Below, piece by piece: positions 2,467 through 12,524 of a stretch of DNA of 32,000 nucleotides (position 1 is its first letter; the number at the start of each line of letters is the position of its first letter). The notes beneath the pieces were generated by a model. It worked only from the letters and a program-made list of their open reading frames with translations, was not told the origin of the DNA and searched no databases. Source of the DNA: Trichlorobacter lovleyi SZ (GTDB lineage Bacteria > Desulfobacterota > Desulfuromonadia > Geobacterales > Pseudopelobacteraceae); contig NC_010814.1 of the NCBI RefSeq assembly GCF_000020385.1, positions 3,660,001 through 3,692,000 on the forward strand. Reading direction: 5' to 3'. A program made the position numbers and the translations under genes.

Positions 2467-3887
2467 CCCTTCAGCTCCTCCATCGGCAACCGTACCGAAA
2501 ATGTTGTCCCTTCACCGGGACTGCTGGCCACCAGTATTTCACCACCGTGGGCCTTGACAATCCGTTCGGTAATGGCAAGCCCCAGGCCGATCCCCACGTC
2601 CTTGGTGGTAAAGTAGGGCTGGAAGACCTTTTCCTGATCTTCAACAGCAATGCCGCAACCCTGATCCTTGAAGCCGAGCCGCACCCAGCCGGGCTCATCA
2701 TCGAGTTCCCCCTCCAGCACAATCGTGCCGCCATTGGGCATGGCCTGGGCCGCGTTGGTAATAAAGTTGGTAATACAGTTACGCATCAACTCAGGATCAA
2801 GCAGCAACACGGGCAAATCAGGTGAAATCCTCTGTTCAATCGTCACCTGCTGTGCAGCCAGACGCTCATACAGCACCGAAAGCGTACGCTCCAGCAGTTC
2901 TGAATAGGTGATCTCGCTCTTGCGCAACTTCAGTGGGCGGCCATAGTTCATGAAGTTGATCACCATGTAGTTGGCACGCCGGACCTCTTCCCGGATCTTA
3001 TCAGCCAGCGCCGTCACCTCACCGGCCCGTTCAGGACACTGCTCCACCACTTCGCTGCGCAGGTGATCGATGGCCAGACTGATGTAGTTAAGCGGATTGC
3101 GGATTTCATGGGCAATACCGGAGGCCAGCTGCCCGACCCTCGAGAGATGTTCAGCCTCGTACAGACGCTTTTCCAGGGTTTCCCGCTCCCGCAGTTTCTC
3201 CACCATTTCGTTAAAGCCCTTGGCAAGCTCGCCAACTTCGTCAGTGCTTTCAACCGGAATGGTGACCGACAGATCTCCGCTGGAGACCTTCTTGAAATCC
3301 TGGACCAGGCGGTGAATCGGATCGGTATAGCGTCGGGAGAGGTAGATTGAAAAGGCGATGCCAACGGTAAAGACCATGGCCGTTGCGGCCAGACGTTTGA
3401 TAAAATTGGAATGCTGGATATTCTGGATATTGTCCAGCAGCATGTTGACCTGGACATAGCCCAGGTGCTCGTCTCCGACAATAACCGGTACCACGACATC
3501 ATACGGCTTCTGCGACAGGATTGTACCGCCCTCGGATTTTCGCGGCGCAGACCTGACCCCTTTTTCCAGCTTTTTCAGATCCTTGATCTTACCGATTTTC
3601 TCCGGATTGGTGGAATCAATGATCTCGCCTTCACTATTAATGATGTTGATTTCATTAATCCCTTTTTGGCGGGCACCTTCAAAATATTCCGTCAATCTTG
3701 ATGTTTCTGCCTCTGAGGTAAGGTCTGCAATACTCAGCTGTACCGCCTTCGAGATTTCCTGCGAACTATCCTGAATCTCCCGGACCAGCGTATTCTGCGA
3801 AAACTGGTTCAGCGAGAAAAGCGTCATCACCGCCAGGACCAGCAGCGAGATCATGATCAATACCAGACGGGTATTCAGGTTCATCAA
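2463..3887 (-). CDS. HAMP-domain sensor histidine kinase
   Basis: 474 aa. N-terminal TM helix, extracytoplasmic segment, second TM helix, HAMP domain, H-box HEIRNPLN, N-box NAAQAM, G-boxes DQGCGI and GIGLGLAI. Translationally coupled to the downstream response regulator. Confidence 0.9.
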   Translation of the reverse strand: MMNLNTRLVLIMISLLVLAVMTLFSLNQFSQNTLVREIQDSSQEISKAVQLSIADLTSEAETSRLTEYFEGARQKGINEINIINSEGEIIDSTNPEKIGKIKDLKKLEKGVRSAPRKSEGGTILSQKPYDVVVPVIVGDEHLGYVQVNMLLDNIQNIQHSNFIKRLAATAMVFTVGIAFSIYLSRRYTDPIHRLVQDFKKVSSGDLSVTIPVESTDEVGELAKGFNEMVEKLRERETLEKRLYEAEHLSRVGQLASGIAHEIRNPLNYISLAIDHLRSEVVEQCPERAGEVTALADKIREEVRRANYMVINFMNYGRPLKLRKSEITYSELLERTLSVLYERLAAQQVTIEQRISPDLPVLLLDPELMRNCITNFITNAAQAMPNGGTIVLEGELDDEPGWVRLGFKDQGCGIAVEDQEKVFQPYFTTKDVGIGLGLAITERIVKAHGGEILVASSPGEGTTFSVRLPMEELKG

Positions 3888-7638: not shown

Positions 7639-8343
7639 GTGGCGCTGATCCGTGGCTTGCTTTATATGTCTGTCTTTTTCCCCCTGACCTTCCTGATTGC
7701 CGCTGTTGCAATCCTGTCGACGCTTATTGATCGTCGCTATTACGCATGGTTTGCCCGTTTCTGGGGACGCCTGGGGATCACCATGGCCGGCATCAGCGTA
7801 ACGGTCAGTGGTGGGGAACAGCTCCCTGACGGCCCGATCATCGTGATGAGCAACCATGCCAGCAACTTTGATATCCTGGCCATGCAAGGCTATTTCCCCC
7901 GCCCGCTTTCCTGGATCGCCAAAAAAGAACTGTTTTCAATTCCGGTCTTTGGCTGGTCCATGCGACGGGGCGGCTATATCGCCCTGGATCGCGGTGATGG
8001 CCGCAAGGCCCTGAAAAGCATGGACGAAGCTGCCGCCCAGATTAAAGGCGGCACCAGCGTGATCATCTTCCCCGAAGGAACCCGCACCAGAGATGGTCAG
8101 CTGCTGCCGTTCAAACGGGGTGGTTTCCTGCTGGCTGTGAAAGCAGGCGTGCCGGTGGTGCCGGTCAGTATCGTGGGCAGCTTTGCCATCAATCCCGGCG
8201 GCAGCCTGGGGTTGAATCTCGGACGATCGGTCCAGCTCACGATCCATGCGCCTATTACCCTGCCTGCAGGCCTGAAGCGGGCGGAGGCGGAAGAACTGTT
8301 GATGCAGCAGGTGCATACTGCCGTTACAGGCGGGTTGCCATGA
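7639..8343 (+). CDS. plsC: 1-acyl-sn-glycerol-3-phosphate acyltransferase
   Basis: 234 aa with an N-terminal TM helix, the acyltransferase HX4D motif NHASNFD and the FPEGTR block. GTG start. Confidence 0.88.
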   Translation: MALIRGLLYMSVFFPLTFLIAAVAILSTLIDRRYYAWFARFWGRLGITMAGISVTVSGGEQLPDGPIIVMSNHASNFDILAMQGYFPRPLSWIAKKELFSIPVFGWSMRRGGYIALDRGDGRKALKSMDEAAAQIKGGTSVIIFPEGTRTRDGQLLPFKRGGFLLAVKAGVPVVPVSIVGSFAINPGGSLGLNLGRSVQLTIHAPITLPAGLKRAEAEELLMQQVHTAVTGGLP

Positions 8344-8525
8344 AGGGACCTCAGTACCTGCTGCTGGTCCTGGCCGGTCTGGTTGCTCTCGGCTGGGGCC
8401 TGCCGGCTGCCCACCGCTGGCCCTCGCCCCGCAACCTGTTGCCCAGCCTGCTGGCCCTGCTGGGGATTGTCATGATGCTGCTGGGGGCGCTGCTCACCTT
8501 TCTGCCCCGTTTTTTTCTGGAGTAA
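8340..8525 (+). CDS. small two-TM membrane protein, function unknown
   Basis: 61 aa with two hydrophobic helices. Its ATG overlaps the plsC stop (ATGA at 8340-8343). Confidence 0.45.
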   Translation: MKGPQYLLLVLAGLVALGWGLPAAHRWPSPRNLLPSLLALLGIVMMLLGALLTFLPRFFLE

Positions 8526-8528
8526 ACG

Positions 8529-8924
8529 ATGGCCCGCCCCCTGATTACCATCCTGATCGCCCTGCTACTGAGCCTGCTGCTGTTGGTTGTCAACGTCAAC
8601 CAGCGCCAGAAGACCCAGTATCTTGAAGGGGTCAAGGGTGAAAAAACCGGCAACTTCATGGTGGCCCTGACCGGCTATGAATCAGCTATCAGGATGTACC
8701 TTCCCTTCTCATCCCGCGTTGAAACAGCTGCAGCACGCATCTGGGCCCTGGGCGAGACTGCCGAACAGCGTGGTGATCTTGACCAGGCACTGGCGGCCTA
8801 TCGCTCGCTACGCAGCGCCTTCTACGGCACCCGCTGGCTGCAACAGCCCGGTACAGACTGGATCAGCCGCTGCGATAAAAAAATTGCGGCACTGGTGCCG
8901 CTGCGCAAAGGAAATCAACCATGA
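8529..8924 (+). CDS. membrane-anchored hypothetical protein
   Basis: 131 aa with an N-terminal TM anchor (LITILIALLLSLLLLVV) and a helical soluble part. Its stop overlaps the rnj ATG (ATGA at 8921-8924). Confidence 0.5.
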   Translation: MARPLITILIALLLSLLLLVVNVNQRQKTQYLEGVKGEKTGNFMVALTGYESAIRMYLPFSSRVETAAARIWALGETAEQRGDLDQALAAYRSLRSAFYGTRWLQQPGTDWISRCDKKIAALVPLRKGNQP

Positions 8925-10702
8925 ATGCTGACAGAGAAGAAATAGCAGCGGTGTATTCGGGTGGCGAGCAAGGCGGCAAGGAAGAGGCGACGCAGGCGTA
9001 CACAGCAGTACGTCGAGGAGCCTCTGACGAAACCAACGCAGCTCCCCGTTCGAATTCGCCGCTGCGGATAGTTGCATTAGGAGGCCTTGGTGAAATCGGC
9101 ATCAACTGCATGGCCTATGAATATGGCGATGATCTGATTCTGGTGGATGCCGGCCTGATGTTCCCTGATGCTGACATGCCCGGTGTGGACTATGTCATCC
9201 CTGATTTCAGCTGGCTGCGGGAGCGGGCTGACAAACTGCGCGGCATCCTGCTGACCCACGGCCACGAAGACCATATCGGCGCCCTGCCATTCCTGCTGCG
9301 TGAATTTCCGGCCCCGATCTACGGCACCGCCCTGACCCTGGGAATTCTGGAAGGCAAACTGCTGGAATACAAGGTCGAGGCGGATCTGAACCCGGTTAAG
9401 CCCCGGGACACCGTCACTCTGGGCAGTTTTCAGGTTGAATTCATCCGGGTCGCCCACTCGGTGGTGGATGGCTGTGCCCTGGCGATCCGCTCACCGGAAG
9501 GAGTGGTGATCCATACCGGCGATTTCAAGCTGGATCAGACCCCGGTGGATGGCGAGGTGACCGACCTGGCCACCTTTGCCCGCTACGGCGACCAGGGCGT
9601 CCTGGCGCTGCTGTCCGACTCCACCAACGTGGAGCGGGAGGGTTACACCATCTCGGAACGTTATGTTGGCGAGGCCCTCTCCGATCTGTTCCCCAAATGC
9701 AAGGGCAGGATCATTGTAGCTGCCTTTTCCAGTAATATCCACAGGGTACAGCAGGTGGCCGATGTGGCTGCCGCCTCTGGCCGCAAGGTGTTGCTGAATG
9801 GCCGTTCCATGATCGCCAACGTCAGGATCGCCCGCCAGCTGGGTTACCTGAAGATCAGTGACGACCTGTTGATGGACATTCGCGAACTGCCCCACATCCC
9901 CCGTGAACAGGTCTGCATGATCACCACCGGCAGTCAGGGAGAACCGCTCTCAGCCCTTTCCCGGATCGCCATGGATGATCACAAACAGATCAAACTGGAA
10001 AAGGGTGACACCGTCATCCTCTCCTCCCGCTATATCCCCGGCAACGAGCGGACCATTTCGGAACTGATCAACCACCTCTACCGCCGTGGCGCCGATGTCC
10101 ACCATGAAAAGGTCTCCGAGGTGCATGTCTCCGGCCACGCCTCCCAGGAAGAGCTGAAACTGATGATGAACATCACCCGGCCCCGCTTTTTCCTGCCGAT
10201 TCACGGCGAATACCGCCACCTGGTACTGCACCGCCGATTGGCCATGAAGGTAGGGATACCGGAAGAGCGCTGCCTGCTGGCGATCAACGGAGAGGTGGTC
10301 AACTTTTACAATGAAACCGCCTGTATTGAAGAAACCGTGGAGACCGGTCGGGTCTTTGTGGATGGCAAAGGGGTCGGTGATGTGGGAGAGGTGGTGCTGA
10401 AGGACCGACGCCACCTCTCTGAAGACGGCATGGTACTGGTGATCCTGGGGGTCAACCAGCACACCGGCGAGTTCATCTACGGCCCGGAGATCGTCTCACG
10501 GGGCTTTGTGTTTGAGGATGAAAGCCAGGCCTACCTGCAGACCGCCAGGGAGATGGTCCGGGAGGCCCTGAAAGAGTTGAGCGTTGAATTTCTGGCTGAC
10601 CGGGATGAGGTGCGCCAGATCGTACGTCAGACCCTGAAGCGGTTCTTCAAGAAGAGTATCGAGCGTCGACCGATGGTGCTGCCGGTGATATTGGAGATGT
10701 AA
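8921..10702 (+). CDS. rnj: ribonuclease J (metallo-beta-lactamase/beta-CASP RNase)
   Basis: The conserved core starts at LRIVALGGLGEIGINCM (about 9061). It has the HGHEDHIG zinc motif and beta-CASP and C-terminal domains. The first ~47 codons are a low-complexity extension that contains repeat copy A. Confidence 0.9.
   Translation: MNADREEIAAVYSGGEQGGKEEATQAYTAVRRGASDETNAAPRSNSPLRIVALGGLGEIGINCMAYEYGDDLILVDAGLMFPDADMPGVDYVIPDFSWLRERADKLRGILLTHGHEDHIGALPFLLREFPAPIYGTALTLGILEGKLLEYKVEADLNPVKPRDTVTLGSFQVEFIRVAHSVVDGCALAIRSPEGVVIHTGDFKLDQTPVDGEVTDLATFARYGDQGVLALLSDSTNVEREGYTISERYVGEALSDLFPKCKGRIIVAAFSSNIHRVQQVADVAAASGRKVLLNGRSMIANVRIARQLGYLKISDDLLMDIRELPHIPREQVCMITTGSQGEPLSALSRIAMDDHKQIKLEKGDTVILSSRYIPGNERTISELINHLYRRGADVHHEKVSEVHVSGHASQEELKLMMNITRPRFFLPIHGEYRHLVLHRRLAMKVGIPEERCLLAINGEVVNFYNETACIEETVETGRVFVDGKGVGDVGEVVLKDRRHLSEDGMVLVILGVNQHTGEFIYGPEIVSRGFVFEDESQAYLQTAREMVREALKELSVEFLADRDEVRQIVRQTLKRFFKKSIERRPMVLPVILEM
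8957..9050 (+). repeat. dispersed repeat, copy A (inside the rnj 5' coding region)
   Basis: The 35-nt core ggcgacgcaggcgtacacagcagtacgtcgaggag at 8986-9020 is identical to 10782-10816. The flanks are similar for ~25-30 nt on each side with one indel. Outer boundaries are approximate. Confidence 0.85.
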
Positions 10703-10750
10703 AATCCATCACCGGAATCAGCACAATTGCTCCCTTAGTCCGGTTTCAGT

Positions 10751-10847
10751 TCTGGGATGATAGCAAGGCGGCGAGGAATTCGGCGACGCAGGCGTACACA
10801 GCAGTACGTCGAGGAGACGAAGACGAGCCAACGAAGCTAGCGCCCTT
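10751..10847 (+). repeat. dispersed repeat, copy B (intergenic, between the convergent rnj and acyl-CoA synthetase genes)
   Basis: Same orientation as copy A, with the identical 35-nt core at 10782-10816. It contains the small hairpin cgtac-acagca-gtacg (10793-10808). Confidence 0.85.
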
Positions 10848-10861
10848 AAATGGAAGCGGCA

Positions 10862-12499
10862 CTACAGATATTTCTCCCGCAGCGCCACCTTGTTGACCTT
10901 GCCCACACTGGTCTTGTCAATCGCCTCCACCAGCTTGACCTTCAGCAGCACCACCTGCTTGGTAACCACCCCTTTATCGGCATATTCCCGCACCAGATGG
11001 GTCAGCTCCTTCTCGGTTACCGGATTATCAGGCTTGGCCACCACCAGGGCCAATGGGCGCTCACCCCATTTTTCATCCGGCTGACCGATCACCGCCACTT
11101 CAGCCACACCGGGATGGTGAGCAATGATATCCTCCAGTTCCAGTGATGAAACCCATTCCCCCGACACCTTCAGCACATCCTTGGTCCGGTCGGTGATCTT
11201 GACGTAACCCTGTTCATCCCGCACCGCCACATCACCGGTGTGCAGGTAGCCGCCTTCCCAGAGCCGTTCCGATGCCTTGTGATCCTTCAGGTAGCCCTGG
11301 GTCAGCCAGGGTGCCCGTACCACGATCTCACCGGTACTCTTGCCGTCGCGAGGCTGCTCCTGACGGGCACTGTCCACAATCTTCAGATCCACCAGCGGCA
11401 AAGAGCGACCGGTCTTGCAGCGGATAACCGCCTGTTCTTCAGGTGAAAGCTCCAGCATTTCCGGCGTCAGATGGGAGATGGTCAGGATCGGGCAGGTCTC
11501 GGACATACCGTAGCCGGTAAACAGGTCAATCCCGCGCTGCAGGGCATCAAGACACAACGCCCGCGACATGGCAGCCCCGCCGATGATCACCTTCCAGCCG
11601 GACAGATCCATCCTCCCGGCATGGGGATGTTTCAGCAGCATATGCAGGATGGTGGGGACGCAGTGAGAGAAGGTGACCTTTTCCCTGTCAATCAGTTCCA
11701 GCAGGTGATCCGGCAGATAACGGCCAGGATAGACCTGTTTGACCCCCAGCATGGTGGCCACGTAAGGCAGCCCCCAGGCATGGACATGGAACATCGGGGT
11801 GATCGGCATGTAGACATCCTGGCGGTTGAAACCGCCGTGGCTGACCGACGACCCCAGCACCGCAAGCACCCCGAGGGTGTGCAGCACCAGCTGGCGATGG
11901 CTGAAGTAGACCCCCTTGGGCATGCCGGTGGTACCGGTGGTGTAGAAGGTGGTGGCACGGGTGTTTTCATCAAAATCCGCAAAGTTGAACTGATCTGAGG
12001 CTGCTGCCAGCAACGCCTCATATTCACCGCTAAAGGGGATGTGGCTTTCAGGCACTGTCGGCTCATCATTCAGCAGCACAAAGCTCTTGACCGTATCCAT
12101 CCGGCCCCGGATCTGCTCCAGAATCGGCAGAAACTCACTGTTGACCAGCAGCACATCATCTTCGGCATGGTCAATGGTATAGAGGATCTGCTCCGGCGAG
12201 AGCCTGACATTGATGGTATGCAGCACCGCGCCGATCATCGGCACGGCAAAGAAGCATTCCAGATAACGGTTTGAATCCCAGTCCATCACCGCCACCGTAT
12301 CCCCGCGCTTGACGCCGAGATCGGTCAGGGCATTGGCCAGCCGCGCCACCCGCTGCCGCAGGTCGCGGTAGCTGAAGCGATGGTCGCGGTAGACAATCTC
12401 CTGGTCCGGGGTATCAACCACCGGGCAGAACAGCAGATTCTTGATCAGCAGCGGATATTCATAGGCAGAAGGGGTACGGGTAATCAGGGCATCGGGCAT
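10862..12499 (-). CDS. AMP-dependent acyl-CoA synthetase (fatty-acid--CoA ligase family)
   Basis: AMP-binding motif YTTGTTGMPKG and the GYGMSE and GYLHTGD...ITDRTKD blocks. ATG at 12499 (MPDALI...) with an upstream GGAG is preferred over the TTG at 12511. Confidence 0.9.
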   Translation of the reverse strand: MPDALITRTPSAYEYPLLIKNLLFCPVVDTPDQEIVYRDHRFSYRDLRQRVARLANALTDLGVKRGDTVAVMDWDSNRYLECFFAVPMIGAVLHTINVRLSPEQILYTIDHAEDDVLLVNSEFLPILEQIRGRMDTVKSFVLLNDEPTVPESHIPFSGEYEALLAAASDQFNFADFDENTRATTFYTTGTTGMPKGVYFSHRQLVLHTLGVLAVLGSSVSHGGFNRQDVYMPITPMFHVHAWGLPYVATMLGVKQVYPGRYLPDHLLELIDREKVTFSHCVPTILHMLLKHPHAGRMDLSGWKVIIGGAAMSRALCLDALQRGIDLFTGYGMSETCPILTISHLTPEMLELSPEEQAVIRCKTGRSLPLVDLKIVDSARQEQPRDGKSTGEIVVRAPWLTQGYLKDHKASERLWEGGYLHTGDVAVRDEQGYVKITDRTKDVLKVSGEWVSSLELEDIIAHHPGVAEVAVIGQPDEKWGERPLALVVAKPDNPVTEKELTHLVREYADKGVVTKQVVLLKVKLVEAIDKTSVGKVNKVALREKYL

Positions 12500-12524
12500 G
12501 GGAAACTCCAAGGCAAATTAATCG

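What the first reader, a model, noticed from the sequence alone, without database searches (positions are those of the whole stretch)
8921..9066. Dispersed repeat embedded in frame in the 5' coding end of RNase J; direct repeats bracket the rnj core
Copy A of an ~85-nt repeat (35-nt identical core at 8986-9020) lies inside the rnj ORF. It encodes part of a low-complexity N-terminal extension (..GGEQGGKEEATQAYTAVRRGASDETNAAPRS..) that precedes the conserved LRIVALGGLGEIG start of the RNase J fold. Between the GTG at 8951 and the conserved core I find no in-frame ATG, GTG or TTG. The ATG at 8921 is stop-start coupled (ATGA) to the upstream gene. The repeat is therefore apparently translated, unless a non-canonical start (CTG 9061 or ATA 9067) is used. 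Copy B (10782-10816 core) lies in the same orientation just past the rnj stop, so the catalytic body of an important RNase is flanked by direct repeats that could mediate deletion or duplication.
Basis: seen in the sequence. Interest (0 to 1): 0.6.

Follow-up and report, generated by a model that had tools for sequence, protein, structure and literature searches.

The report
Hairpin repeat inserted in-frame in RNase J
The repeat is real: it is one copy of a widespread, transposon-like hairpin repeat that has landed in frame just after the start codon of the RNase J gene, where it adds a floppy 33-42-residue tail. A second, independently acquired copy lies just past the gene. This is a known kind of event and not a special feature of RNase J.

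Summary
An identical 35-nt core lies at 8986-9020 and 10782-10816, inside about 80 nt of 86% similarity.

Copy A is the tip of a 121-nt hairpin (8945-9065, -63 kcal/mol) within the rnj coding sequence. The ATG at 8921 is the orthologous start. Most orthologues have only 4-13 leader residues. Relatives carry intact, partly deleted, decayed or empty versions of the insert, always in frame, so it is translated. AlphaFold gives residues 1-43 as disordered.

Copy B is nearer to copies from other organisms than to A, so it is not a local duplicate. Sister strains carry a different element variant at that site.

The 28-nt tip motif occurs in more than 119 metagenome loci and in Geobacter sp. OR-1. 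There it caps long hairpins with unrelated arms that look like classical MITEs, with 4-bp YTAR or 3-bp TNA target duplications. The family matches the unexplained 'Gmet_R1001-R1024' multicopy sequences of Geobacter metallireducens (2009). It is absent from Rfam.

I found no sign of recombination between A and B.

Verdict: a new member of a known kind, of moderate-low interest. What the conserved tip does remains open.

The parts
8529..8924 (+). Upstream 131-aa ORF (weak TPR-like hit). Its stop overlaps the rnj start as ATGA.
   Evidence: The same 4-nt overlap is seen in orthologous loci L129-L132, whether or not the element is present.
8921..10702 (+). rnj, RNase J, 593 aa including the element-encoded N-terminal extension.
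   Evidence: Pfam. Independent gene callers call it from 8921 on 12 contigs. Orthologues are 547-558 aa.
8945..9065 (+). Copy A, the complete long hairpin of 121 nt. The outer stem is GCAGCGG/CCGCTGC. Its 3' end overlaps the host codons for P-L-R.
   Evidence: RNA fold -63.1 kcal/mol, z = -6.5, 0 of 200 shuffles fold as well. Codons 9-49 of rnj.
8951..9049 (+). Minimal inserted block of 99 nt (33 codons), encoding VYSGGEQGGKEEATQAYTAVRRGASDETNAAPR.
   Evidence: Filled versus empty comparison, L130 versus L131. The peptide is hydrophilic, GRAVY -1.09. Residues 1-43 have pLDDT below 50 and no secondary structure.
8986..9020 (+). The 35-nt core identical to copy B. It contains the 28-nt cap motif CGCAGGCGTAC-N6-GTACGTCGAGG (8991-9018), a 7-bp stem with a G.U pair below a 6-nt loop, sitting on a GCA/GA internal loop.
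10744..10855 (+). Copy B, about 112 nt with decayed outer arms. It lies in the 159-nt spacer between the rnj stop and the stop of the convergent AMP-ligase gene.
   Evidence: -35.6 kcal/mol, z = -2.45. Its nearest relatives are L077 and L096. In sister strains the site holds a different variant.
10782..10816 (+). The 35-nt core of copy B (cap motif at 10787-10814).
10862..12511 (-). Convergent AMP-binding (acyl-CoA ligase-like) gene. It marks the right edge of the variable spacer.
   Evidence: Pfam AMP-binding 2e-77. Called as 545 aa on related contigs.

Best explanation
**What it is.** Copies A and B are two independently acquired members of a family of non-coding, transposon-like long-hairpin repeats (MITE- or REP-like). 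The family is common in Geobacter/Trichlorobacter relatives and in many uncultured bacteria.

**Architecture.** Each element is an imperfect palindrome of about 100-180 nt. Its tip carries a strongly conserved, asymmetric 28-35-nt cap:
- a 7-bp stem containing a G.U (G.T) pair;
- a variable 4-6-nt loop;
- a purine-rich GCA/GA internal loop, often preceded by tandem G.A pairs.

**How it spreads (inferred).** The elements are mobilised in trans. Sister subfamilies show the hallmarks of DDE-transposase MITEs.

**Copy A.**
- It landed downstream of the true rnj start codon, in the short, variable, non-conserved N-terminal leader.
- The inserted length is a multiple of three, and the sense frame is open and encodes a hydrophilic, Gly/Glu/Ala-rich peptide.
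- The insertion was therefore tolerated. It is translated as a disordered extension of 33-42 residues ahead of the first beta-strand.
- In related lineages the same insertion has since been kept, partly deleted in frame, or has lost its cap.

**Copy B.** It sits in the 3' spacer between convergent genes. That spacer turns over: sister strains with near-identical flanks carry a homologous element with a different cap there.

**Bracketing of rnj.** The bracketing of rnj by two same-orientation copies is incidental.

**Shown versus inferred.**
- Shown: dispersion, hairpin, covariation, presence/absence polymorphism, frame conservation, and target-site duplications in sister subfamilies.
- Inferred: trans-mobilisation by a transposase, neutrality of the extension, and whatever the cap binds.
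For: **Dispersion**
- One exact hit in 185,579 representative genomes (Geobacter sp. OR-1, between an arnC-like and an arnA-like gene) with a loop-specific 22-mer.
Many lie at contig ends.
- Four Logan contigs break inside copy A.

**Same family as the G. metallireducens elements**
- It matches Gmet_R1001-R1024 in PMC2700814, Additional file 4.

**Hairpin**
- Copy A folds at -63.1 kcal/mol, z = -6.5.
- The helix under the cap covaries: 74 double-change cells versus 31.5 +/- 4.8 in shuffles, 0 of 500 shuffles reaching it, and all slid controls lower.
- The arms show no G.U versus A.C strand asymmetry, 177 versus 168. This fits a DNA-level palindrome.

**MITE hallmarks in sister subfamilies that share the cap**
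- A 177-178-nt family: 19 of 23 distinct sites are flanked TA..TA, and read by eye these extend to 4-bp YTAR direct repeats.
- A 123-nt family: 12 of 17 sites carry identical 3-nt TNA repeats.

**Insertion and translation**
- Most orthologues start MNSSPLRIVALGG.
- L130 has exactly 99 nt more than L131 at the same point.
- P0003 and P0018 have in-frame partial deletions of 87 and 42 nt.
- The start codon and its ATGA overlap are conserved.
- There is no later canonical start.
- Residues 1-43 are predicted disordered.

**Same frame in unrelated host genes**
- A NifE-like gene with about 45 extra residues inside one Pfam domain.
- The C-terminus of a protein I read as a lytic transglycosylase, by eye and without a Pfam check.
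- A protein resembling an AMP-binding enzyme, again by eye only.

**Copy B is independent and its site is polymorphic**
-.
Against: - **No target-site duplication at copy A.** No terminal inverted repeat distinct from the hairpin could be defined for copy A or B either.
- **Ambiguous right junction.** It falls within TCGAAnnCGCC, a sequence the element also carries at an unrelated locus (L081). Yet the peptide it encodes (SNSP) resembles the host leader in orthologues without an element.
- **Unexpected flank complementarity.** The left flank GCAGCGG is the inverted complement of host codons CCGCTGC, and this covaries in L130 as GCAACGG/CCGTTGC. A simple cut-and-paste insertion does not predict that.
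- **No transposase found.** No autonomous element or transposase was found next to any copy.
- **Unexplained cap conservation.** The cap is identical across subfamilies whose arms cannot be aligned. A purely selfish-DNA model does not explain this.
- **Sampling bias.** The metagenome set was selected with the cap pattern itself, so conservation of the cap cannot be measured from that set.
Confidence: 0.75

Rival explanations
1. The hairpins are co-opted cis-acting RNA elements that control rnj itself. In this view a 5' coding-region hairpin and a 3'-UTR hairpin protect the mRNA from RNase J, RNase E or RNase III, or present it to them. That would be an autoregulatory device, and the shared cap would be the recognition site.
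For: - Very stable sense-strand hairpin starting 24 nt after the start codon (-63 kcal/mol).
- No intrinsic terminator follows rnj, so copy B could define or protect the 3' end.
- As RNA, the + strand folds better than the - strand in 57 of 65 elements, because of the asymmetric cap with its G.U pair.
- The cap in the window is still identical to the consensus, although the orthologous copy in L130 has decayed.
Against: - The same elements sit beside or inside unrelated genes (nif-like, SLT-like, formyltransferase, radical SAM, between tRNAs) and in both orientations. In co-directional spacers there are 2 sense and 9 antisense copies.
- In G. metallireducens the two cap classes appear to lie in opposite orientations within one operon. 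I infer this from the strands, coordinates and '5' of' annotations in the supplement.
- Orthologues 90-94% identical lack the element altogether, and others have deleted or degraded the cap.
- Sister strains have another variant at site B.
Confidence: 0.12
2. The extension is not translated. Translation starts at a non-canonical codon (CTG 9062 or ATA 9068) after the repeat, and copy A is really a 5' leader.
For: - In Geobacter sp. OR-1 the element lies immediately upstream of a good ATG for the downstream gene, so there it may be untranslated.
- CTG 9062 and ATA 9068 are in frame.
Against: - ATG 8921 is the orthologous start, with the same ATGA overlap in loci with and without the insert.
- It is preceded by AAAGGAAA, which I read by eye as a Shine-Dalgarno-like sequence. 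I see no such sequence before 9062 or 9068.
- All allelic length changes (6, 42, 87, 99, 105 nt) keep the frame, and no allele has a stop.
Confidence: 0.05
3. Copy B is a local partial duplication of copy A, or the reverse. The pair would then be a two-copy oddity of this locus.
For: The 35-nt core, including the 6-nt loop ACAGCA, is identical between A and B.
Against: - The same core and loop occur in Geobacter sp. OR-1.
- Outside the core, B matches L077 and L096 better than A, and A matches L081 better than B.
- B's arms resemble Gmet_R1010 and R1013.
- There are more than 119 other loci.
Confidence: 0.03

Closest known systems
[quoted passage not shown] 2009, PMC2700814, Additional files 4 and 5)
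   Same: - Same element family. Each is a hairpin of about 110-115 nt.
- R1010, R1013, R1003, R1015 and R1021, read as reverse complement, contain CCGCAGGCGTAGC-AGC-GCTACGTCGAGGAG. The window has CGCAGGCGTAC-ACAGCA-GTACGTCGAGGAG.
- The arms of R1010 and R1013 resemble copy B.
- The majority Gmet type (GCGGAGGCGTAGC..GCTACGCGCACAA) matches the variant found at site B in sister strains (L003).
   Different: - The apical stem is GTAGC/GCTAC there and GTAC/GTAC here, a compensated difference.
- The paper lists them only as intergenic, function unknown. Here one copy is inside a coding sequence.
Rickettsia palindromic elements (RPE) and other intragenic REP/MITE insertions (Di Nocera et al. 2013, PMC3733652; the RPE in-frame behaviour is cited from my own knowledge of Ogata et al. 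2000)
   Same: Small palindromic repeats that insert in frame into protein-coding genes without destroying them. They add hydrophilic segments and are also found between genes.
   Different: - No sequence relationship was tested or is expected.
- RPEs and CGTC-REPs carry an unpaired CGTC tag, AT-starting 8-9-bp stems and a CCA tail. This cap has none of these.
Bacterial MITEs (for example Correia, ERIC, Nezha, and Chunjie of G. uraniireducens; Delihas 2011, PMC3184786)
   Same: Size of 100-200 nt, no coding capacity, long hairpin, many copies, presence/absence polymorphism. Sister subfamilies carry target-site duplications (YTAR 4 bp, TNA 3 bp).
   Different: - Chunjie is A+T-rich with 9-bp direct repeats, so it is a different element.
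- Here the most conserved part is the centre of the hairpin and not the termini. That same centre is shared by subfamilies with different termini and different duplications.
REP/REPIN elements mobilised by RAYT transposases
   Same: Hairpin-forming dispersed repeats near gene ends. According to Di Nocera et al., REPs are sometimes embedded in longer palindromes.
   Different: The cap has no GTAG tag. No RAYT or any other recurrent neighbouring gene was found. The unit is a single asymmetric hairpin, not an inverted doublet.

Membership tests
Gmet_R10xx multicopy family (Aklujkar 2009) | An element of about 110-115 nt with a central palindrome GRCGTAGCGCTGCTACGCC, flanked by CCTCGA../..CCTGCGG or TTGTGCG../..CCTCCGCG. 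| tested here: met
   Alignment of window copies A and B, the OR-1 copy and the L003 spacer with six published sequences. It shows the shared CGCAGGCGTA..TACGTCGAGGAG and shared arm motifs. The apical stem differs by compensated changes.
Gmet_R10xx multicopy family (Aklujkar 2009) | Many copies per genome, at gene boundaries. | tested here: inconclusive
   The window holds 2 copies in 32 kb, and contigs break at the element.
MITE (non-autonomous DDE transposon) | Short (under about 300 bp), non-coding, with terminal inverted repeats. | tested here: met
   Hairpins of 112-178 nt. The arms pair over their full length.
MITE (non-autonomous DDE transposon) | Target-site duplication flanking each copy. 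| tested here: inconclusive
   Met for two sister subfamilies: YTAR at 19 of 23 sites and TNA at 12 of 17 sites. No clear duplication at copy A (filled L130 versus empty L131) or at copy B.
MITE (non-autonomous DDE transposon) | Presence/absence polymorphism at orthologous sites. | tested here: met
   The rnj N-terminus is filled, partly deleted or empty among orthologues 78-95% identical. Site B carries alternative elements between flanks that are 97-99.7% identical.
MITE (non-autonomous DDE transposon) | A cognate autonomous IS with the same termini. | not tested
   No transposase recurs within 2.5 kb of the copies. No IS database was available.
REP/REPIN (RAYT-associated) | A 20-40-nt imperfect palindrome with an unpaired GTAG (or CGTC) tag at one end. 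| tested here: not met
   The cap is CGCA-stem-loop-stem-GAGG. Its CGTC lies inside the stem. GTAG occurs only in the arms of one subfamily.
REP/REPIN (RAYT-associated) | An associated RAYT (IS200/IS605-type) gene flanked by the repeats. | tested here: not met
   Clustering of 1,390 neighbouring ORFs gave no recurrent family.
Described structured RNA families (Rfam 15) | A covariance-model match at or near the gathering score. | tested here: not met
   No match for the window, for 20 and then 9 loci, or for 8930-9075 at E <= 10.
RPE-like in-frame palindromic insertion (functional analogy) | Insertion inside ORFs that preserves the frame and encodes a tolerated hydrophilic segment. | tested here: met
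   Found in rnj, a NifE-like gene and proteins that look SLT-like and AMP-binding-like, all in the same frame. GRAVY -1.09. pLDDT below 50.

The most novel reading that the evidence does not exclude
The conserved asymmetric cap is CGCAGGCGUAC-loop-GUACGUCGAGG(A), with its G.U pair, GCA/GA internal loop and tandem G.A pairs. A sister class is GCGGAGGCGUAGC..GCUACGCGCACAA. The novel reading is that this cap is an undescribed functional nucleic-acid module: a binding site on RNA or single-stranded DNA for a conserved host or transposition factor.

The module would be carried by, or would insert into the tips of, several otherwise unrelated MITE families with different termini and different target duplications, in many bacterial lineages.

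Cap exchange at a fixed site (window-type versus L003-type spacer) would then mean the module moves or converts independently of its arms. So would the inverted-complement flanks at rnj.
Probability: 0.3. Interest if true: 0.6.

Novelty: new member of a known kind. Interest (0 to 1): 0.38.

Why it matters
**For annotation.**
- The 593-aa RNase J is a correct gene call. Its first ~45 residues (two native residues, an ~8-residue leader, then the repeat-derived insert) are not a conserved part of the enzyme, and residues 1-43 are predicted disordered.
- The same repeat creates spurious small ORFs and breaks assemblies.

**For biology.**
- This is a clean, datable example of a palindromic repeat being absorbed into an essential-type gene and then decaying in frame.
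- It ties an unexplained 2009 Geobacter 'predicted short RNA' family to a much wider set of MITE-like elements.

**The open point.** A 28-35-nt asymmetric hairpin tip stays identical across elements whose arms are unrelated. If that tip is a protein-binding RNA or ssDNA motif, it would be a new and testable motif class.

Tried and rejected
- **Rfam.** Four searches (window; 20 loci at gathering score; 9 loci at E <= 1; 8930-9075 at E <= 10) gave nothing relevant.
- **Viral contigs.** No exact cap pattern.
- **Plasmids (PLSDB).** A distant blastn with six element types gave no match.
- **Literature by sequence strings.** Only primer coincidences.
- **G. bemidjiensis supplements.** No match.
- **Neighbouring genes.** Clustering gave no recurrent partner such as a transposase, reverse transcriptase or RAYT.
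- **Class I cap in the window.** None found.
- **Strand-of-function test.**
  - G.U versus A.C counts in the arms show no asymmetry.
  - Orientation relative to genes is mixed, and the ORF calls behind it are heuristic.
- **Unbiased cap conservation.** Copies defined by their arms alone yielded only 2 extra copies, too few to judge.
- **Peptide census.** The word-index search failed for the 43-aa peptide. The exhaustive phmmer search gave only 3 hits.
- **Target-site duplication for copy A.** Two models were tried, and neither could be established:
  - 123 nt plus an ATA/TAG repeat, which conflicts with SNSPLR being host-derived;
  - 129 nt plus GAAT, which conflicts with the hairpin boundaries.
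- **Rejected readings.** Riboswitch or leader (the genes served are unrelated), CRISPR, integron attC, K-turn (four extra nucleotides on the non-bulged strand), and a coding-level conserved peptide (the spacing between the CAAGGCG motif and the cap differs by 1 nt between subfamilies, so the frame is not conserved).
Full report
**1.
- The 35-mer GGCGACGCAGGCGTACACAGCAGTACGTCGAGGAG occurs at 8986-9020 and 10782-10816, both on the + strand. None is expected by chance.
- Similarity extends over 8967-9043 versus 10762-10838, 78 nt at 86%.
- The ORF 8921-10702 is RNase J by four Pfam domains.
- Its ATG overlaps the stop of the upstream ORF as ATGA.
- After ATG 8921 and GTG 8951, the next in-frame canonical start is ATG 9110, which is already inside the fold.

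**2. Copy A is the tip of a much larger hairpin.**
- Positions 8945-9065 fold into a single 121-nt hairpin of -63.1 kcal/mol. The z-score is -6.5 and none of 200 shuffles folds as well.
- Copy B (about 10744-10855) has the same architecture with decayed outer arms: -35.6 kcal/mol, z = -2.45.

**3. The organism and its close relatives.**
- The exact 593-aa protein is encoded on 12 metagenome contigs.
- The nearest named RNase J proteins are from Trichlorobacter, then Oryzomonas and Geobacter.

**4. The N-terminal extension is an insertion, and it is translated.**
- Of the 120 best orthologues, nearly all have 4-13 residues before LRIVALGGLGEIG (for example MNSSPLRIV, 551 aa). Only P0001, P0002 and the window have the full extension.
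- P0033 is 78% identical and 591 aa long. It carries the element at the same point. Its relative P0035 (558 aa) lacks exactly 99 nt there: L130 reads ..GCAACG|GTGTATTCGG...CTCTACGT|TCGAATTCG.. and L131 reads ..GCTACG|TCGAATTCG...
- P0003 (95% identical, 564 aa) keeps the first 16 nt or so and has lost 87 nt. P0018 (579 aa) keeps diverged arms but has lost the cap.
- Every length change is a multiple of three, and no allele has a stop.
- The start codon and its 4-nt overlap with the upstream gene are the same in filled and empty loci.
- AlphaFold2 with 25 homologues gives pLDDT below 50 and no secondary structure for residues 1-43. The first strand is at 48-52.
- The sense frame encodes a hydrophilic peptide (GRAVY -1.09). 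The three antisense frames are hydrophobic or Cys-rich.

**5. It is a dispersed family, not a local oddity.**
- A loop-specific 22-mer found one hit in 185,579 species representatives, in Geobacter sp. OR-1. It lies between an arnC-like glycosyltransferase gene and an arnA-like formyltransferase gene, again in frame with an upstream ATG.
Many are at contig ends.
- Four Logan contigs stop inside copy A.
- No hit in viral contigs or plasmids.

**6. The elements have a conserved cap on variable arms.**
- In all these loci the motif caps a long hairpin whose arms differ completely between subfamilies.
- In ungapped register, the two bases before the motif are GA in 28 of 51 sequences, otherwise NC. 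The base after it is A in more than 90%. This gives tandem G.A pairs, a C-G pair, a GCA/GA internal loop and then the 7-bp stem with its G.U pair.
- The helix below the cap covaries: 74 double-change cells versus 31.5 +/- 4.8 in shuffles, with 0 of 500 shuffles reaching that value. The covariation score is 0.170 versus 0.066, and all slid controls are lower.
- The arms show no strand asymmetry, 177 versus 168 G.U pairs in the two orientations. The whole element folds better as + strand RNA in 57 of 65 cases, because the cap is asymmetric.

**7. Sister subfamilies look like classical MITEs.**
- A 177-178-nt subfamily has termini GCCCGSAYT.../...ARTSCGGGC. Nineteen of 23 distinct sites are flanked by TA..TA. 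Read with the adjacent bases, these are 4-bp direct repeats CTAG, TTAA, CTAA or TTAG.
- A 123-nt subfamily has termini TACCAAGTTGC.../...GACTTGGTA. Twelve of 17 sites carry identical 3-nt TNA repeats, and this repeat is often the stop codon of the neighbouring gene.
- No transposase or other protein family recurs next to the copies.

**8. The same frame turns up in unrelated host genes.**
- A NifE-like nitrogenase-component gene in L011. One Pfam domain spans 441 residues against a 399-position profile, and the insert reads ..SGQGGKEEATQAYTEVRRGDSDAANAG...
- The C-terminal tail of a protein in L081 that I read by eye as a lytic transglycosylase, with no Pfam check.
- A protein, P0122, that resembles an AMP-binding enzyme, again by eye.
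- The leader of the OR-1 formyltransferase.
- A 123-nt-type copy lies inside a radical-SAM gene in another frame.
- The distance from the CAAGGCG motif to the cap differs by 1 nt between subfamilies, so conservation is at the nucleic-acid level and not at the peptide level.

**9. Copy B is independent, and its site is variable.**
- Outside the core, B is closer to L077 and L096 (70/79) than to A (67/78). A is closest to L081 (71/79).
- In L003, L006, L008 and L009 the flanking genes are 97-99.7% identical to the window. Yet the rnj to AMP-ligase spacer is a different 139-nt sequence that blastn cannot align.
- That spacer is a perfect 100-nt hairpin (-51.8 kcal/mol, z = -7.4). Its outer arms are homologous to copy B's (TTTTCGTTCTGGG..), but its cap is different: GTGC-GGA-GGCATAC-AGCCA-GTATGCC-GCAC.

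**10. The family was already recorded.**
- Aklujkar et al. [quoted passage not shown] They have the central palindrome GRCGTAGCGCTGCTACGCC and are mostly annotated as 5' of unrelated genes. [quoted passage not shown]
- Read as reverse complement, R1010, R1013, R1003, R1015 and R1021 carry the window's cap type. The majority carry the L003 cap type.
- In the Gmet_0902-0903 operon the two classes appear to lie in opposite orientations. I infer this from the element strands and coordinates and the '5' of' annotations; gene strands are not given.
- Orientation relative to transcription is therefore not fixed. This agrees with 2 sense versus 9 antisense copies in co-directional spacers in my heuristic survey.
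- Di Nocera et al. 2013 (PMC3733652) describe intragenic REPs, REPs embedded in longer palindromes and CGTC-tagged RPEs. This cap fits neither their GTAG tag nor their CGTC tag.
- Chunjie, the known G. uraniireducens MITE, is different. Rfam has nothing.

**11. Recombination between A and B.**
- None of the 12 contigs with the exact RNase J, and none of the 22 with the upstream gene, shows a deletion or duplication junction.
- A response-regulator gene in L127 is likewise bracketed by two same-orientation copies.

**12. What remains unexplained.**
- The right junction at rnj falls in TCGAATTCGCC. The element carries a similar sequence at L081 (TCGAAGACGCC). Yet SNS(P/A)L is also the host leader in element-free orthologues such as Oryzomonas (TCAAATAGCGCCCTT) and P0013 (AACAGTTCACCATTA).
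- The outermost stem pairs the left flank GCAGCGG with host codons CCGCTGC, and it covaries in L130 as GCAACGG/CCGTTGC. Quasipalindrome template switching, or insertion guided by microhomology, could produce this. That is inference only.
- The cap is identical across subfamilies with unalignable arms and different target duplications, and it has been swapped at a fixed site. This suggests a functional module whose partner is unknown.

**13. Verdict.** This is a real, correctly located repeat. It is a translated in-frame insertion of a MITE/REP-like hairpin element into the dispensable N-terminal leader of RNase J, together with an independent copy in the 3' spacer. It is a new member of a known kind. 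The bracketing of rnj has no demonstrated significance.

Noticed in passing
window 10703-10861; L003 11783-11921 (also L006, L008, L009): The rnj to AMP-ligase spacer exists in two unalignable alleles between flanks that are 97-99.7% identical. The two alleles have homologous outer arms but different caps, class II here and class I in L003. In L003, identity to the window also drops from 98% upstream to 87.5% downstream of the spacer, so a recombination breakpoint sits at the element.
   Followed up: partly
L129 2103-2981; L132 4312-6644: In strains with the P0003 or P0004 RNase J, accessory genes lie directly downstream of rnj. In L129 they are HEPN plus nucleotidyltransferase (toxin-antitoxin-like), inserted between rnj and the AMP-ligase gene. 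In L132 they are RNA ligase plus AAA/DUF3696. The region just downstream of rnj is a hotspot for variable content.
   Followed up: no
window 8945-8951 with 9059-9065; L130 2519-2525 and its partner: The left flank of the insertion is the inverted complement of host codons P-L-R, and it covaries between lineages (GCAGCGG/CCGCTGC versus GCAACGG/CCGTTGC). The hairpin appears to have been extended into host sequence after insertion.
   Followed up: partly
L015, L017, L024, L032, L041 and about 20 other loci: A 177-178-nt MITE subfamily flanked by 4-bp YTAR direct repeats. Both of its arms carry GTAG on the same strand (..CGTAGCGAGG.. and ..CGCAGTAG..), so this internal loop is not complementary.
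   Followed up: partly
L020, L025, L048, L073, L079 and others: A 123-nt subfamily with 3-nt TNA direct repeats. The duplicated triplet is often the stop codon (TAA or TGA) of the adjacent gene, so the element abuts the coding sequence exactly.
   Followed up: partly
L021, L121 and the second copy in L127 (3' arms); L088 and L054 (5' arms): Extra small GC-rich hairpins, for example CACCCGCAAGCGGGTACCCGG, are nested inside the arms of some copies. This suggests secondary insertions into the elements.
   Followed up: no
L031 136-473: One copy lies in the spacer between two tRNA genes, at 136-207 and 401-473.
   Followed up: no
L140-L143, contig ends at locus position 3487: Four independent Logan assemblies end about 91 nt into rnj, inside copy A. 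The repeat breaks short-read assemblies and can truncate rnj gene calls.
   Followed up: no
window 7639-10702: A conserved gene string runs acyltransferase, 61-aa ORF, 131-aa TPR-like ORF, rnj. Its genes overlap or abut at their stops and starts, and the string is kept in Trichlorobacter-like relatives and partly in Oryzomonas.
   Followed up: no
L127 108-1041: A response-regulator (REC) gene is bracketed by two same-orientation copies about 900 nt apart. This mirrors the rnj arrangement.
   Followed up: partly
P0001/P0002 N-terminus, corresponding to window 8995: Close relatives read ATQTY instead of ATQAY. I infer a GCG to ACG change, which would turn the cap's G.U pair into A-U. In G. metallireducens the same position is G-C or A-U. 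The pair is maintained, so the wobble is not obligatory.
   Followed up: no
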